NCBI GenBank assembly: GCA_902774655.1
Contig: CACYJD010000001.1
Coordinates: 1-45,595, forward strand
Source of the DNA: an uncultured Erysipelotrichaceae bacterium
Lineage (GTDB): Bacteria > Bacillota_I > Bacilli_A > RFN20 > CAG-826
DNA: 45,595 bases
Direction of reading: 5' to 3'
Below the pieces are notes generated by a model. The model searched no databases, was not told where the DNA came from, and saw only the letters and a list, made by a program, of their open reading frames with translations. The translations under genes were made by a program, and so were the position numbers. Positions 30,451 to 41,881 of the stretch are shown one piece after another (positions within the stretch are counted from its first letter, which is position 1; the number at the start of each line of letters is the position of its first letter).

Positions 30451-30560
30451 TTGTTTCTCCTTTCCGAGCAGTTCATCACTCTTGGCAATCCTTATGGGAC
30501 CAGCGACTTATGGCTTCGCACTAAAATTGCAAAAAAAATATATTTTTGTTTTTCGAGCAT

Positions 30561-30594
30561 AAAAAAAGACCACTACGTTATTCGCGTAATGGCC
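30561..30594 (-). terminator. Rho-independent terminator after the ABC ATPase gene
   Basis: Minus-strand GGCCAUUACG-cgaauaa-CGUAGUGGUC forms 10 bp (including 2 G-U pairs) and is followed by UUUUUUU. Confidence 0.6.
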
Positions 30595-30614
30595 TATGTG
30601 CATGTGTTTCTTAA

Positions 30615-32291
30615 TTAATTATTCTTTGCTCTGCCCCATTGATCACCGAACAATGCCCCATCTCCAGAATGAAGTTGAATTACTTGTTTTTCTATAGCAA
30701 TATTTGTTATCGTTCCATCTGGATTAACTTCTTTATATCTATCAGGGTTTTCAGCAACAGCAAATATCTGTCTTTCAGTTTTTTGGGCATATAATTTAAA
30801 TAAATCGCGAGCAGTAATATCTTCGATATTAGTAAATAGAATCGAGTCGTGTCCAAAGACTGGTAGTTTTGTATTCTCCATTATTGCCAAATCCAACAAA
30901 CAAACTGCTTTATACCTAGTTCCAGTTCCTGTATCACCTGGAGTGTAGAAAGCATAACTTTTAAGTTCGTTAAATTTGAAAATTGGAGCAGCTACTCTTT
31001 TATCATCTTTTTCTCTAATGTGGGTATTGTTTTCCCTCATTGATGAATTTAGTTTGTTTTCGATTGTTGTCGTATATGTTTCTGTTAATTGCACTAAGGT
31101 TTTTTCTGCTTCTTTATATCCTTTTAATGCACTTTCGCTATCTTCAAAATTTTTGATGGCGGTTCCAAGCCTATCTATTTCCTTTGATAAATATTCGCGT
31201 TCTTTAACATACGATTCGGAAACAGTAGGCACAGTCTTATATTCTTCTAATTGAGTATTAATTTCAGCAATTCTTGCATCAATTAAAGAAATTAAATTCT
31301 CAACTTCTTTATTTGCTTCAATGATATCTTCCAACAAATATCCATAGACATCTTTATGGAATTTTTCATATTTTTTAATTTCAGGAATCTTGACATCTTC
31401 AAAGAACTCTTTTAAAGCACCATACTTCAATTGATACTCTTCTTCAGATAGTAATTCATCATTATCATTAATATCAGTTAATTTCTTTTCTAACGTTTTT
31501 CTTCTTCTTTGGAGTTTTACTTTTTCTTTGTTAAGACGCGTTTTTTCGGTGGCTTCTAATGCCTCTTGGTCATTTGAATTATGGATATTGTCATAGTCTA
31601 ATTGTTCTAATTGCTTACGCAAATCAGCTAATTGAGCCACCATTTTTGCTTTTTCTTCTGCACTTATAGCAATTGGAGCAATATTATGTTTTCTAATGTT
31701 GTCGTATCCCTTTTTTAAATCTTTTTTAGAATCGTAATCTGCCTTTGTAGATTCTATCGGTTTAAACATTCCGAACATCTTTAATAAAACGCTCATTCCA
31801 TCATAGTCAGATTCCCTAATATGAGCGTTAATTGGTCTCCATTCGTTATAGTTTTTCTTATTATAAATTCTAAAATATGGTCCAACCCATTCTCTAAACG
31901 ATAGGTCTTCACCGTTTTTTAGACCATAGAAATTTACAAGGTCTTCCTTAAACTGTTTATTGGTTATTGTGTTTCTTGTCTTATATTCGCTGTCACAAAT
32001 GTCCACTCTTTCTGGGTTTTGTGTGTTTCTTTTATAAAATCTTGATTTGCCATCGAATTCAAATTCAAAGCAAATATCGTGATGGCCCACATGTTCAATA
32101 GTTTCTTTTTCTTTTTGTGGATAATCATCTCCGCCAAAACAAAAATCAATAATCATCAACAAAGTTGATTTACCTATAGAGTTTGTTGCTCCTTTTTCAC
32201 CGAGGATTACATTTAAACCATTATGAAATCTAATTGGTTCTCTAGGAACGCCATGATCAATAAACTTATCGCATTTAATTGTTTTTAACAT
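30615..32291 (-). CDS. Coiled-coil ABC/SMC-like ATPase (DUF2326-like; ATPase of an ABC-three-component-type system)
   Basis: 558 aa from the ATG at 32291. N-terminal Walker A GEKGATNSIGKST; a ~250-aa K/E-rich coiled coil in the middle; a C-terminal Walker B-like LPVFGHDS. Confidence 0.65.
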   Translation of the reverse strand: MLKTIKCDKFIDHGVPREPIRFHNGLNVILGEKGATNSIGKSTLLMIIDFCFGGDDYPQKEKETIEHVGHHDICFEFEFDGKSRFYKRNTQNPERVDICDSEYKTRNTITNKQFKEDLVNFYGLKNGEDLSFREWVGPYFRIYNKKNYNEWRPINAHIRESDYDGMSVLLKMFGMFKPIESTKADYDSKKDLKKGYDNIRKHNIAPIAISAEEKAKMVAQLADLRKQLEQLDYDNIHNSNDQEALEATEKTRLNKEKVKLQRRRKTLEKKLTDINDNDELLSEEEYQLKYGALKEFFEDVKIPEIKKYEKFHKDVYGYLLEDIIEANKEVENLISLIDARIAEINTQLEEYKTVPTVSESYVKEREYLSKEIDRLGTAIKNFEDSESALKGYKEAEKTLVQLTETYTTTIENKLNSSMRENNTHIREKDDKRVAAPIFKFNELKSYAFYTPGDTGTGTRYKAVCLLDLAIMENTKLPVFGHDSILFTNIEDITARDLFKLYAQKTERQIFAVAENPDRYKEVNPDGTITNIAIEKQVIQLHSGDGALFGDQWGRAKNN

Positions 32292-32505
32292 AATGAACAA
32301 CCCCTTCCAATAGCTCAATTTTTCCTAAAACAAATAGACAATCGAGCGTATCTATAAATTCGCCTCGGCTCTCGAAAGACGATTTTGTTTTGTTGTAGAG
32401 TTCTTTAACAGAATAATCACAGTCTTCTAAAGGCTTTAAAATGACAGGAAACTTCGATAAGCAACTGTTTTTGTAACTAATAAATTTACTCGGAAGTTTC
32501 ATCAC
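32275..32505 (-). CDS. 76-aa helical protein, putative middle component of the ABC-3C-type system
   Basis: It overlaps both neighbours (by 20 nt and 17 nt), which indicates translational coupling. No catalytic motif was seen. Confidence 0.5.
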   Translation of the reverse strand: MMKLPSKFISYKNSCLSKFPVILKPLEDCDYSVKELYNKTKSSFESRGEFIDTLDCLFVLGKIELLEGVVHYVKNN

Positions 32506-33718
32506 TCAACACCTCACAATGAACTAAAAAATAACATGTAATTAAATAGCATGTTTCAGGATCCTTCTGTCCGTCAGGCAAACAATCATTTAACTTTGTC
32601 GCGATTTGGTTTATTACTTCATCTTCACTCAAGTGAAGACTGTAAAAATAATGGTCAGACCAATTCTTTATTTTTTCGCCAAATACAGTTGACCCATTTT
32701 GAGTCTTTTCTTCATAAGAAGTAAAGCAACTATCAATATCGTAATAATCATCAGCAATTCTCTTTTTGATTCTGTTTCTAGAATAAGGAATTGTGTTTTT
32801 CATTTTTTCATCTATTCGTTTGGCTTCCGTAGTTAATGGCTTTTTATCTCCATCGAAATGGCCTAATAAATAATCAGCGACCCTTGTTATTCTTTCCTTA
32901 AAGAATGTTTTATCCATTGTTTTGTCGATGGTCGAATATTTAATCGCTTCTCTTTTTGTCTTGTATAAAAGTTTATAGTCTTCAACATTTGGACTACCGT
33001 GATAAAGTCTATAGTGTCTAGCACAAACCGCTATTTTGTTTGATGAGGCTTCTACATCACTTGGCTTATAAATGCCACTAGTTTGAAAAGTAAACTTTGT
33101 TGCTTCATCAATTGGATTAGGATAAATATGCACTATTTCATAGTTTTTAATGTGCCTACCTTTATATTCAGGAGCAAGTATATCTTCACAAAACGGGCAT
33201 CTTCCTTTCATTTCTTCAATAAAGTCATAATCAAGAGCATCTGGTTCATTATCAACATGAAGAGGTCCTTCTATCGCATTACGATAAAAATCACAGAATT
33301 CTTCAGTTACATCAATTTGTGTAAAAAACTTTTCACAAGCAATCGAACATGCGTGGCAAAAAACATCAAAGTCCGCTGCGTATGATTCAGCTATATTTAA
33401 ATCCTGGTATGCAAAAGCAATGGCCCTTTTGTTAATTGCCCTAACAAAGAAACTAAAAAGAGCAATAAAATCTATAGGCTGTGGAATTTGCGATAGCAAA
33501 CGAGGATTGATTAGTTTCGGGTCGCTAGCCCTACCAAGATCGCCATCAAATAGTTTTCTGCAATTGCTGTCTTCTTCGTTTCTATAATCTAAATATTTGG
33601 GATGTTTTAGAGCTTTGAGAAGACTACCAACAAAAACAGCTTTATTTTCATAAGCTGGAGATAATGATTTTTTTATGCCGTGGCAGAACTCACAAAATTT
33701 GATAACAATGTCCTCCAA
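32486..33718 (-). CDS. Putative effector of the ABC-3C-type system with an HNH-like nuclease motif
   Basis: 410 aa. Residues ~174-240 read CPFCEDIL...YEIVHIYPNP...NKIAVCARHYRLYH (CxxC...H...N...H...H). The start is a TTG at 33718 with no clear RBS, so the start is uncertain. Confidence 0.5.
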   Translation of the reverse strand: MEDIVIKFCEFCHGIKKSLSPAYENKAVFVGSLLKALKHPKYLDYRNEEDSNCRKLFDGDLGRASDPKLINPRLLSQIPQPIDFIALFSFFVRAINKRAIAFAYQDLNIAESYAADFDVFCHACSIACEKFFTQIDVTEEFCDFYRNAIEGPLHVDNEPDALDYDFIEEMKGRCPFCEDILAPEYKGRHIKNYEIVHIYPNPIDEATKFTFQTSGIYKPSDVEASSNKIAVCARHYRLYHGSPNVEDYKLLYKTKREAIKYSTIDKTMDKTFFKERITRVADYLLGHFDGDKKPLTTEAKRIDEKMKNTIPYSRNRIKKRIADDYYDIDSCFTSYEEKTQNGSTVFGEKIKNWSDHYFYSLHLSEDEVINQIATKLNDCLPDGQKDPETCYLITCYFLVHCEVLSDETSE

Positions 33719-33909
33719 ATAATAAAGTCCTATGAAAGTCCGATTGGTCTCATTGTCAGAGACCTTTTTTAATTTTCTAACGCTATGAAATGCTATTAAC
33801 TTTAGTTAGGCAAACGACTTTAAATCTAATTATAGCATAAAGATTTGTAGGATTAATGCCTAAATATCCAGCACGCGTGTTGGGAGCATAAGAAAGGAGA
33901 ATTCAAGTT

Positions 33910-34285: not shown

Positions 34286-34867
34286 ATGAAAATTACTGTC
34301 AATTTAGAAACTGAAGGATTAGTTGAAAACGATAATATCTTCACTCCTTCACCAACAAGAACAGCCGCCATTACTGTTAAAGAACTTAATGGCAAAACTA
34401 TTTATCTTACTCCTAAAGAAGCTGATTCCTATAGGAGACTTCAACAACGCTTATGGCAACAATCACAAAGGGAGGGAAGATGCATAGTCTTCTCAGAACG
34501 TTATGGTGCTAAAGTATGCCGTGGCAACTGCTCCCAATGCGAAAAAGCACGTGACCGTTATCCATTATCAATTGAAGCTTTGACTGAAAAAATAGGCCAC
34601 GAGCCTAATACTGGCGAGTTTGCTGATAGGCAAGAAGCTGAAGATCCAAGAAAAATCTATGAGCGCAAAGAAACAATGATGTTTATCAAAAAGGCCATGG
34701 ATGAAATTGGAGCTAATGTCTTCGATATCTGTTGGAGAAGAATTGTCTTGGAAGAGTCAATTCAAATTATTGCTGATGATTATGGCATCAACAGAGAAAC
34801 GCTTCGCAAGATGATTATAAAATGGACAAAAATACTCCAAGATAAACTTGCTTGGCTTAAAAACTAA
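34286..34867 (+). CDS. Sigma-70 region-4-like / HTH DNA-binding protein with a Cys cluster (putative regulator)
   Basis: 193 aa. The C-terminus ESIQIIADDYGINRETLRKMIIKW is HTH-like. The central part has CRGNCSQCEK. The RBS is weak. Confidence 0.45.
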   Translation: MKITVNLETEGLVENDNIFTPSPTRTAAITVKELNGKTIYLTPKEADSYRRLQQRLWQQSQREGRCIVFSERYGAKVCRGNCSQCEKARDRYPLSIEALTEKIGHEPNTGEFADRQEAEDPRKIYERKETMMFIKKAMDEIGANVFDICWRRIVLEESIQIIADDYGINRETLRKMIIKWTKILQDKLAWLKN

Positions 34868-41807: not shown

Positions 41808-41881
41808 TGGCAGGGGTGACAAGAATCGAACTCGCATCAGCGGTTTTGGAGACCGTTGCACTGCCATTGTGCTACACCCCT
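41808..41881 (-). tRNA. tRNA-Trp (anticodon CCA), 74 nt with an encoded CCA end
   Basis: Cloverleaf folded by hand. Acceptor AGGGGTG/CACCCCT (7 bp); D stem GCAC/GTGC; anticodon loop CTCCAAA; T loop TTCGATT; discriminator G followed by CCA. Confidence 0.9.

What the first reader, a model, noticed from the sequence alone, without database searches (positions are those of the whole stretch)
30615..33718. ABC-three-component-like conflict system carried between the phage replication module and the R-M genes
Seen: three overlapping minus-strand genes end at a clean terminator (30561-30594).
- A 410-aa protein with an HNH-like CxxC...H...N...H...H segment.
- A 76-aa helical protein.
- A 558-aa ATPase with an N-terminal Walker A (GATNSIGKST), a ~250-aa coiled-coil insert and a C-terminal Walker B-like motif.
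Known (as I recall): this order (effector with a C-terminal adaptor domain, small middle component, coiled-coil ABC ATPase of the DUF2326 type) was defined purely computationally as the ABC-3C class in the Aravind-group classification of ABC ATPases. To my knowledge it has little experimental characterisation.
Inference: it is probably a prophage-encoded abortive-infection or superinfection-exclusion module, with the ATPase as a nucleic-acid sensor and the HNH-like protein as the effector.
Basis: partly seen in the sequence, partly recalled or inferred. Interest (0 to 1): 0.6.

Follow-up and report, generated by a model that had tools for sequence, protein, structure and literature searches.

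The report
Prophage Lamassu with decayed HNH effector
This is a three-gene Lamassu (ABC-3C) anti-phage system carried as cargo by a prophage of an uncultured gut bacterium. It is a known kind of system, but its effector has a worn-out HNH nuclease and an uncharacterised helical domain at the front, and related phages attach that same domain to other immune sensors.

Summary
Three overlapping minus-strand genes (30615-33718) form a self-contained unit, with an extended -10 promoter and a terminator.

All three proteins pass Pfam's curated cut-offs for ABC-3C families: CTD11, MC7 and DUF2326. The ATPase hits PADLOC LmuB, and its model matches solved Lamassu LmuB structures.

ABC-3C is the same as type II Lamassu. 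The operon is a short Lamassu of the HNH subtype.

New here:
- **Decayed HNH.** The HNH domain is Cap5-like in fold, but its metal-binding His/Asp pair is gone (Y236, H240). In a single LmuB clade, all about 89 distinct effector lineages with a ~160-aa N-terminal extension lack the H/H/D catalytic set. Of 51 lineages without the extension, 48 keep it.
- **Mobile N-domain.** The helical, acidic N-domain recurs in related phages. It sits at the same hotspot, divergent from an ECF-like sigma gene. It is fused to CTD6 (a second Lamassu subtype), a NACHT NTPase or an Ig-like domain, or stands alone.

I infer that the N-domain, not the HNH, is the output module; its activity is unknown.

It is a new variant of a known kind, of moderate interest. 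The scan had not reported this on other DNA.

The parts
33829..33837 (-). Extended -10 promoter element TGcTATAAT, about 110 nt upstream of the effector start
   Evidence: Read directly from the sequence. The consensus scan missed it because the -35 is poor. Function is inferred.
32486..33718 (-). lmuA: 410-aa effector-position protein (N-domain + degenerate HNH + CTD11). The start is uncertain by a few codons, because the TTG lies inside a GGAGG.
   Evidence: ORF. CTD11. 249 family representatives. AF2 model with pLDDT 87.5.
33239..33718 (-). N-terminal helical domain (residues 1-160). It is acidic (pI about 5.1), has no membrane segment and no conserved polar residues.
   Evidence: Nine helices in the model. 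No PDB or BFVD match. Only F29, G59 and F90 are conserved at 60% or more. Profile-profile homology to the N-terminal parts of N-CTD6, N-NACHT and N-Ig proteins: probabilities 98.2, 93.7 and 99.5%. pI and hydropathy.
32939..33232 (-). Cap5-type HNH (beta-beta-alpha) domain, residues 163-260. Zn ligands are kept (C174, C177, C232, H235), as are H197 and N227. The metal-binding pair is replaced (Y236 for His, H240 for Asp).
   Evidence: Alignment columns. HNH_2 matches in 5 of 36 relatives. Cap5 profile hit. Foldseek Cap5 matches at probability about 1.0.
32507..32920 (-). CTD11 adaptor domain, residues 267-404. By analogy with solved LmuA, this would be the part that docks on LmuB/LmuC.
   Evidence: Pfam PF20277, 41.4 bits against a cut-off of 27.7. 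Found in 36 of 36 relatives. The docking role is inferred.
32275..32505 (-). lmuC: 76-aa middle component (MC7)
   Evidence: Pfam PF20292, E 2e-23. phrog_6259, E 8.7e-20. Present between the effector and the ATPase at related loci.
30615..32291 (-). lmuB: 558-aa SMC/Rad50-like ABC ATPase of the DUF2326 type (short LmuB, no CxxC zinc hook)
   Evidence: DUF2326. PADLOC LmuB, E 2.9e-17. phrog_5467, E 1.9e-101. AF2 pLDDT 89.7. Foldseek hits to YydD (E 2.9e-19) and to Lamassu LmuB chains 9uxh, 9ux7, 9hqu and 9hqx.
32163..32192 (-). Walker A / P-loop GATNSIGKST (LmuB residues 34-43)
   Evidence: N37, S38, G40 and K41 are invariant in 54 homologues.
31023..31766 (-). Coiled-coil insert of LmuB (about residues 176-423)
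   Evidence: Long helices in the AF2 model.
30843..30863 (-). Deviant Walker B, PVFGHD-S (residues 477-483), with no catalytic Glu
   Evidence: H481 and D482 are invariant. It matches the short-Lamassu consensus hhhhD[Q/S/T/E].
30557..30595 (-). Intrinsic-terminator-like hairpin plus T-run that ends the operon

Best explanation
The three genes are a short, type II Lamassu (ABC-3C) defence operon in the order lmuA, lmuC, lmuB. A temperate phage carries it as cargo, in a variable hotspot next to the phage's ECF-like sigma gene.

By analogy with solved Lamassu complexes, the following steps are inferred:
- A LmuB dimer with one LmuC holds one LmuA by its CTD11 in the lysogen.
- Free DNA ends or replication intermediates of an incoming phage or plasmid are sensed by the LmuB heads and LmuC.
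- ATP turnover releases LmuA, which self-associates and acts.

What differs here is the output. The HNH domain is a structural relic, and the ~160-aa acidic helical N-domain is the likely active module. It probably acts by binding a protein target or by assembling, not by catalysis. What that output does is unknown: killing the cell, blocking replication or interfering with transcription are all open.

Shown here: family membership, folds, the decay pattern and the genomic context. Inferred: complex formation, the trigger and the effector role of the N-domain.
For: Membership:
- Pfam CTD11, MC7 and DUF2326 are all above their cut-offs. PADLOC LmuB, E 2.9e-17.
- The LmuB model matches solved Lamassu LmuB chains and B. 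subtilis YydD.
- Walker A is intact, and Walker B is of the short-Lamassu type hhhhDS.
- The gene order is conserved at about 130 loci.

HNH decay:
- After collapsing to about 50% identity, 0 of 89 lineages with the N-extension keep H197/H236/D240, against 48 of 51 without it (raw counts).
- Zn ligands (67 of 89) and the structural Asn (80 of 89) persist, so the fold is kept.
- On the LmuB tree these lineages form one clade (72 rows, SH-aLRT 93), with intact-HNH forms branching just outside it.
- Their LmuB and LmuC genes are intact, so the system stays under selection without HNH chemistry.

N-domain as output:
- The same domain (hhalign probability 94-99.5%) is fused directly to CTD6. That gene is followed by MC2 and an AAA_23 ABC ATPase.
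- It is also fused to a NACHT NTPase. In both architectures the N-terminus is the effector position.

Cargo status:
- The operon has its own promoter and terminator.
- Its GC content is 31-33%, against about 40% in the replication module.
- Related phages carry type I R-M, C5 methylases or nothing recognisable at the same site.
Against: - No experiment exists for this subtype. I found no paper that tests a DUF2326/MC7/CTD11 system.
- The window's own protein still has E194, H197, N227 and a His at 240, so residual nuclease activity cannot be excluded.
- The N-domain has no structural match and no conserved polar residues. Its 'effector' role rests only on domain architecture.
- It could instead be an adaptor, or a conserved 5' arm for cassette exchange.
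- The decay and the N-domain gain map to one branch of the tree, so their correlation is a single evolutionary event.
- The locus samples are biased by the search patterns and contain near-duplicates.
Confidence: 0.7

Rival explanations
1. This is a conventional nuclease Lamassu. The window's HNH is still active, with H197 as general base, N227 as the structural Asn and H240 as the single metal ligand. The released LmuA degrades DNA and aborts infection. The N-domain is only a regulatory or autoinhibitory appendage.
For: - The window's protein, unlike most of its clade, keeps E194, H197 and N227 and has a His at 240.
- The Zn site is intact.
- The fold matches the active nuclease Cap5.
- From general knowledge, some beta-beta-alpha-Me nucleases use a single metal ligand from the helix.
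Against: - The His that follows the second Zn-ligand pair, conserved in 47 of 54 short forms, is Tyr here.
- The closest relatives (33-35% identity) have K, K or E at position 197, so this site is not under purifying selection in the lineage.
- None of the 89 lineages with an N-extension keeps the full set.
- N-CTD6 Lamassu proteins have no nuclease domain at all.
Confidence: 0.2
2. The N-domain is a binding partner (anti-sigma-like) of the phage's ECF-like sigma factor p193. The Lamassu sensor then gates phage transcription instead of killing the cell. On sensing foreign DNA ends, it would either block the early transcription of related superinfecting phages or switch the prophage's own programme.
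For: - An N-domain gene is the first gene divergent from p193 in 23 of 50 p193 phage loci.
- 57 of 75 unique long-form effectors have p193 divergent within 1.5 kb, against 3 of 39 short forms.
- The pair stays together in three different arrangements relative to the replication genes, including the inverted one in the window.
- The N-domain is small, helical, acidic and fast-evolving, as many anti-sigma domains are.
- A standalone N-domain gene heads the integrase/HTH operon in L221.
- p193 homologues hit Sigma70_ECF and Sigma70_r4.
Against: - Adjacency may be purely positional: a cargo hotspot beside a core gene.
- 27 of 50 p193 loci have no detectable N-domain gene.
- 18 of 75 long-form loci have no detectable p193.
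- No structural similarity to any known anti-sigma factor was found.
- No interaction test was possible.
Confidence: 0.12
3. The operon serves the phage's own DNA metabolism. It would be an SbcCD/Rad50-like end-processing or end-protecting complex working with the adjacent exonuclease and annealase module, not a defence system.
For: - It is persistently next to the exonuclease, SSB and polymerase module.
- LmuB is held to derive from SbcC.
- The nuclease chemistry of the effector has been lost.
Against: - Most related phages with the same replication module lack it: 28 of 37 loci with enough upstream sequence.
- In most phages it is transcribed away from the replication genes, together with an XRE regulator.
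- It has lower GC and its own promoter and terminator.
- All three proteins belong to conflict-system families.
Confidence: 0.04
4. It is a decaying, non-functional remnant of an HNH Lamassu.
For: The HNH catalytic residues are degenerate.
Against: - All three ORFs are intact and translationally coupled.
- 99%-identical copies occur in three independent MAGs.
- The degenerate clade is large and deeply diverged, with intact LmuB Walker motifs.
Confidence: 0.04

Closest known systems
Short type II Lamassu / DdmABC (V. cholerae LmuACB, PDB 9NY5/9NYG; Salmonella LmuACB 9hqu/9hqx; 9uxh)
   Same: - Same three-gene order: effector with an adaptor CTD, a small middle component, and an SMC/Rad50-like ABC ATPase of about 560-600 aa.
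- Deviant Walker B and no zinc hook.
- The LmuB fold matches.
   Different: - The families of all three parts differ: CTD11/MC7/DUF2326 here, against CTD7/MC3 in V. cholerae.
- The effector N-terminus is not a Cap4 nuclease. It is a helical domain of unknown function followed by a degenerate HNH.
- No sequence-level hit to the solved chains.
Lamassu HNH subtype (short Lamassu; Haudiquet et al. 2025, PMC12663957)
   Same: - A short LmuB is paired with a LmuA that contains HNH.
- The ~255-aa relatives found here (HNH + CTD11, intact H/H/D) fit this description.
   Different: - The window's clade adds a ~160-aa N-domain and has lost the catalytic set.
- I found no mention of this in the paper's text. 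Its figures and supplements were not checked.
Lamassu 'clade O', said to have lost the LmuA effector domain (same paper)
   Same: It is a precedent for Lamassu systems that persist, with intact LmuB and LmuC, without a recognisable enzymatic effector.
   Different: Clade O is described as lacking the domain. Here LmuA is full length (410 aa), with a relic HNH and an extra domain. Whether the N-CTD6 systems found here are clade O could not be tested.
CBASS Cap5 (HNH-SAVED nuclease; PDB 8fm1, 7rwm, 9dif)
   Same: It is the best sequence and structure match for residues ~163-260. It has the same E..AHI.P ... N ... CxxCH...D signature as the short-form relatives. It is also activated by oligomerisation.
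   Different: Cap5 is triggered by a cyclic nucleotide through its SAVED domain. The window's protein lacks the His/Asp metal pair and has CTD11 instead of SAVED.
Bacillus subtilis YydB-YydD (integrative model 9a6c)
   Same: YydD is the closest structural neighbour of the window's ATPase (E 2.9e-19, TM about 0.53).
   Different: The partner effector is a different protein. I found no functional study of it.

Membership tests
ABC-3C / type II (short) Lamassu | SMC/Rad50-like ABC ATPase (LmuB) whose head domain is split by a coiled coil | tested here: met
   DUF2326, 40.2 bits against a cut-off of 28.7. PADLOC LmuB, E 2.9e-17. AF2 model with a ~250-aa coiled coil. Foldseek hits to LmuB chains 9uxh_F (2.2e-10), 9ux7_A, 9hqu_A and 9hqx_f, and to Rad50/SMC heads.
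ABC-3C / type II (short) Lamassu | Small middle component (LmuC/MC) encoded between the effector and the ATPase | tested here: met
   Pfam MC7, E 2e-23, 82.7 bits against a cut-off of 27. The position is conserved at related loci.
ABC-3C / type II (short) Lamassu | Effector protein (LmuA) ending in a family-specific adaptor CTD | tested here: met
   Pfam CTD11, 41.4 bits against a cut-off of 27.7, residues 267-404. Found in 36 of 36 relatives.
ABC-3C / type II (short) Lamassu | Intact Walker A, and a short-type Walker B hhhhD[Q/S/T/E] | tested here: met
   GATNSIGKST, with N37, S38, G40 and K41 invariant. VFGHD-S, with H481 and D482 invariant. Consensus taken.
ABC-3C / type II (short) Lamassu | N-terminal enzymatic effector domain on LmuA | tested here: inconclusive
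   The HNH fold is present, but the metal-binding His/Asp pair is replaced. The additional N-domain has no catalytic signature.
ABC-3C / type II (short) Lamassu | LmuA1-LmuB2-LmuC1 complex that is activated by DNA ends | not testable with these tools
   No multimer prediction or biochemistry was available. This feature is inferred.
ABC-3C / type II (short) Lamassu | Protection against phage or plasmid | not testable with these tools
   This needs an experiment. I found no published test of this subtype.
HNH (HNH_2 / Cap5-type) nuclease | Beta-beta-alpha-metal fold with a CxxC...CxxC/H zinc site | tested here: met
   Foldseek matches to Cap5 at probability 0.99-1.0 over 105-117 residues. Profile hit to 8fm1, E 4.7e-4. 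C174, C177, C232 and H235 are present.
HNH (HNH_2 / Cap5-type) nuclease | General-base His and structural Asn | tested here: met
   H197 and N227 are present in the window's protein. However, H197 is kept in only 10 of 89 lineages of its clade.
HNH (HNH_2 / Cap5-type) nuclease | Metal-binding His after the second Zn pair, plus an Asp four residues later (H236/D240 in the active subfamily) | tested here: not met
   Y236 and H240 in the window. The pair is conserved in 47 of 54 short forms, against 2 of 82 (His at 236) in long forms.
Prophage-borne defence cargo | Lies within phage genes at a site that varies between related phages | tested here: met
   Phage structural and replication genes flank it. 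The same site holds type I R-M, C5 methylases, other Lamassu types or a NACHT protein in related phages. GC content dips there.

The most novel reading that the evidence does not exclude
A phage lineage has turned immune sensors into gates for a non-enzymatic output domain. The sensors are two Lamassu subtypes and a NACHT NTPase. The output is a helical N-domain that co-resides with the phage's own ECF-like sigma factor and may bind it. Detecting foreign DNA ends would then reprogramme phage transcription, as non-lethal exclusion of related phages or as an induction switch, instead of killing the host. The decayed HNH would be the fossil of the original suicide nuclease.
Probability: 0.12. Interest if true: 0.75.

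Novelty: new variant of a known kind. Interest (0 to 1): 0.45.

Why it matters
Lamassu is found in about 15% of prokaryotic genomes. It is currently understood as a sensor that unleashes an enzymatic, usually nucleolytic, effector.

This locus belongs to a large, diversified and mostly prophage-borne clade in which that enzyme has decayed while the sensor stays intact. In the same clade a previously undescribed helical domain occupies the effector position. Neighbouring phages attach the same domain to a second Lamassu type and to a NACHT protein.

If the N-domain is the output, it would be a new non-enzymatic effector or adaptor shared between ABC- and STAND-based immunity. It would also give a tractable case for asking how an effector is replaced without rebuilding the sensor. 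If not, the locus is simply one more Lamassu on a prophage.

Tried and rejected
- **p193 as a fourth component: rejected.** The idea was that the 193-aa sigma-like gene (34286-34867) belongs to the system. It is a core gene of the phage lineage, always leading p193 > p408 > exonuclease > SSB > polymerase. 28 of 37 loci with enough upstream sequence lack ABC-3C.
- **tblastn and blastn against the phage collection.** The effector, p193 and the operon DNA gave no match. Only the ATPase found 5 phages, at about 30% identity.
- **Sequence searches of the PDB.** The ATPase and MC gave nothing. The ATPase profile was swamped by coiled-coil hits to hemagglutinin HA2.
- **Fold searches.** PDB and BFVD gave no match for the N-domain or CTD11.
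- **Other ABC-ATPase defence systems (Septu, Gabija, PARIS, Wadjet).** There were no PADLOC hits apart from a negligible JetC match, E 0.68.
- **att-site repeats.** None were convincing. The window starts at the contig end, so the left prophage border is missing.
- **The search for related loci with the full p193 alignment.** It failed for lack of a conserved stretch. A subgroup alignment worked.
- **Papers.** The Krishnan et al. 2020 ABC-3C paper is not held. Searches for DUF2326 and for YydD/YydB gave nothing relevant.
Full report
**1. Observation**

One search confirms three minus-strand ORFs:
- 32486..33718 (410 aa)
- 32275..32505 (76 aa)
- 30615..32318 (567 aa from TTG)

Homologues and phrog_5467 align from residue 10 of the third ORF. 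The genes overlap by 20 and 17 nt.

A hairpin with a T-run at 30595-30567 ends the unit. I read a perfect extended -10 element (TGcTATAAT, 33837-33829, minus strand) about 110 nt upstream of the first gene. The operon is therefore a self-contained transcription unit.

Its GC content is 31-33%, against about 40% in the adjacent phage replication genes.

**2. Family assignment**

All three proteins pass Pfam's curated cut-offs for ABC-3C families:
- CTD11: E 2.6e-10, effector residues 267-404
- MC7: E 2e-23
- DUF2326: E 3.5e-10

The ATPase also hits PADLOC LmuB (E 2.9e-17) and phrog_5467 (E 1.9e-101). The middle component hits phrog_6259.

An AF2 model of the ATPase (pLDDT 89.7) shows a split ABC head with a coiled coil of about 250 residues. 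Foldseek's best match is B. subtilis YydD (9a6c, E 2.9e-19). Solved Lamassu LmuB chains (9uxh, 9ux7, 9hqu, 9hqx) also rank among the top hits, alongside SMC and Rad50 heads.

Walker A residues are invariant. Walker B is VFGHD-S, which fits the short-Lamassu consensus hhhhD[Q/S/T/E]. There is no CxxC zinc hook.

**3. What is known**

The literature equates ABC-3C with type II Lamassu and DdmABC. Cryo-EM work from 2025 shows the following:
- The complex is LmuA1-B2-C1.
- It senses DNA ends.
- It then releases LmuA, which tetramerises and cuts DNA.

HNH is listed among the effectors specific to short Lamassu. A 'clade O' that seems to have lost its effector domain is also noted. I found no test of this particular DUF2326/MC7/CTD11 subtype.

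**4. The effector is not a plain HNH protein**

An exhaustive HMMER search found 249 family representatives. They come in two forms:
- about 255 aa: HNH + CTD11
- about 400 aa: the same, plus an N-terminal extension

The HNH region is homologous to genuine HNH_2 domains (5 of 36 relatives hit PF13391). Its nearest solved relative is the CBASS nuclease Cap5 (profile E 4.7e-4). The AF2 model (pLDDT 87.5) matches Cap5's HNH domain at probability about 1.0.

The short forms keep Cap5's catalytic signature, E..AHI.P ... N ... CxxCH...D. The long forms do not. Among raw sequences, 94 of 107 without an extension keep H197/H236/D240. Of the 162 in the two main extension clusters, none does.

After collapsing to about 50% identity, the counts are 48 of 51 without the extension and 0 of 89 with it.

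Among those 89 lineages:
- The Zn ligands persist in 67 and the structural Asn in 80, so the fold is retained.
- The former general-base position is Lys or Arg in 34.

The window's protein has E194, H197, N227, C232, H235, Y236 and H240. Its closest relatives have K, K or E at position 197.

On a LmuB tree the long, degenerate forms make one clade (72 rows, SH-aLRT 93), and intact-HNH forms branch just outside it. The change therefore happened once. The clade then diversified widely with intact LmuB and LmuC.

**5. The N-terminal domain**

Residues 1-160 fold as nine helices. They have the following properties:
- no PDB or viral-library match
- acidic, pI about 5.1, with no membrane segment
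- only three conserved positions, F29, G59 and F90

The two sequence clusters of extensions are homologous (hhalign probability 96%).

The domain also turned up outside LmuA. A 261-aa protein in a related phage matches it (E 4.8e-14) but has an Ig-like C-terminus. A systematic look found the same domain in four further settings:
- fused directly to CTD6, in proteins of 328-336 aa; at L161 this gene is followed by MC2, a 609-aa AAA_23 ABC ATPase and an XRE gene, which is a second Lamassu subtype
- fused to a NACHT NTPase (777 aa)
- fused to an NBR1-type Ig-like domain
- standing alone, at 133-159 aa

Profile-profile probabilities against the window-type domain are 98.2% (N-CTD6), 93.7% (N-NACHT) and 99.5% (N-Ig). 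In both Lamassu and STAND proteins the N-terminus is the effector position. In N-CTD6 proteins nothing else is present. From this I infer that the N-domain is the output module and that the HNH became dispensable.

**6. Context**

Positions 531-30450 hold phage genes:
- tail, tape-measure, head and portal genes
- helicase, primase-helicase, PolA, Gp2.5-like SSB and PD-(D/E)xK exonuclease

To the right lie, in order:
- a 193-aa gene (p193)
- a MutH/Sau3AI-type endonuclease with a C5 methylase
- DUF7226, a Dam methylase and a DndB-like protein
- tRNA-Trp (41808-41881)
- host-like genes

The window is the start of a contig of a 1.13-Mb, 73%-complete MAG. Copies that are 99% identical occur in three rumen or colon MAGs.

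p193 has a Cys cluster and a sigma-70 region-4-like C-terminus. Homologues are annotated as, or hit, Sigma70_ECF and Sigma70_r4. p193 is a core gene that leads the replication operon. The site divergent from it is a cargo hotspot, which in related phages carries type I R-M, C5 methylases, Lamassu subtypes or a NACHT protein.

An N-domain gene is the first divergent neighbour of p193 in 23 of 50 loci. 57 of 75 unique long-form effectors have p193 beside them. In the window, the block [p193 | lmuA-C-B] is inverted relative to the common arrangement.

**7. Mechanism and rivals**

Best explanation (confidence 0.7): a short type II Lamassu carried as prophage cargo. It senses DNA ends and releases a LmuA whose active part is the N-domain.

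Rivals:
- The HNH still cuts DNA (0.2).
- The N-domain is an anti-sigma-like partner of p193, so that the sensor gates transcription (0.12; this is also the novel case).
- The operon has a role in phage recombination (0.04).
- It is a decaying remnant (0.04).

**8. Caveats**

- Locus counts come from pattern-seeded, capped searches and include near-duplicates.
- The decay and the N-domain gain are one evolutionary event.

**9. Verdict**

The locus is a new variant of a known kind, of moderate interest.

Noticed in passing
window 34286-34867 (+): p193 is a small protein with a Cys cluster and a sigma-70 region-4/ECF-like C-terminus. It is a core gene that leads the replication operon of a widespread phage lineage (p193 > p408 > exonuclease > SSB > PolA). 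In the window it is inverted, together with the Lamassu operon, relative to the common arrangement.
   Followed up: yes
L161:2280-5540 (-), also L158, L173, L185, L192, L193, L196: A second Lamassu subtype sits in the same phage hotspot. Its LmuA is only N-domain + CTD6 (about 330 aa). It is followed by MC2, a 609-aa AAA_23 ABC ATPase and an XRE regulator.
   Followed up: partly
L199:1097-3430 (-): A 777-aa protein with the same N-domain fused to a NACHT NTPase and a weak SNaCT14 match. It lies divergent from p193 and is followed by HTH_17 and a type I R-M methylase.
   Followed up: partly
L146:4541-5326 (-), L201:4720-5547 (-): Proteins of 261-275 aa with the N-domain fused to an NBR1-type Ig-like domain, next to HTH_17 and type I R-M genes (HsdM, HsdS).
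   Followed up: partly
L221:6001-8033: A standalone 139-aa N-domain gene heads an operon with a large serine recombinase and an HTH_3 protein. It is divergent from a 185-aa gene in the p193 position.
   Followed up: no
window 41808-41881 (-): tRNA-Trp lies at the junction between the phage/defence island and host-like genes (NUDIX, DUF3899, Opp ATPases). It is probably the integration site. No integrase was seen in the window.
   Followed up: partly
window 33746-33770 (+): A GC-rich hairpin followed by a T-run on the plus strand lies just upstream of the lmuA start. It could insulate the divergent units or stop antisense transcripts.
   Followed up: no
window 33701-33720 (-): The listed TTG start of lmuA lies inside a strong GGAGGA. 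The true start may be a few codons away, and homologues begin around the IKF motif.
   Followed up: partly
window 30615-32291 (-): The closest structural neighbour of the ATPase is B. subtilis YydD in the YydD-YydB integrative model (9a6c). I found no functional study of that pair.
   Followed up: partly
L138 (Streptococcus phage phiStag1, PP091924): The MC7-type middle component in this record is annotated 'MafI family immunity protein', which is probably a mis-annotation. An IS66 element and a surface-protein gene follow that operon.
   Followed up: no
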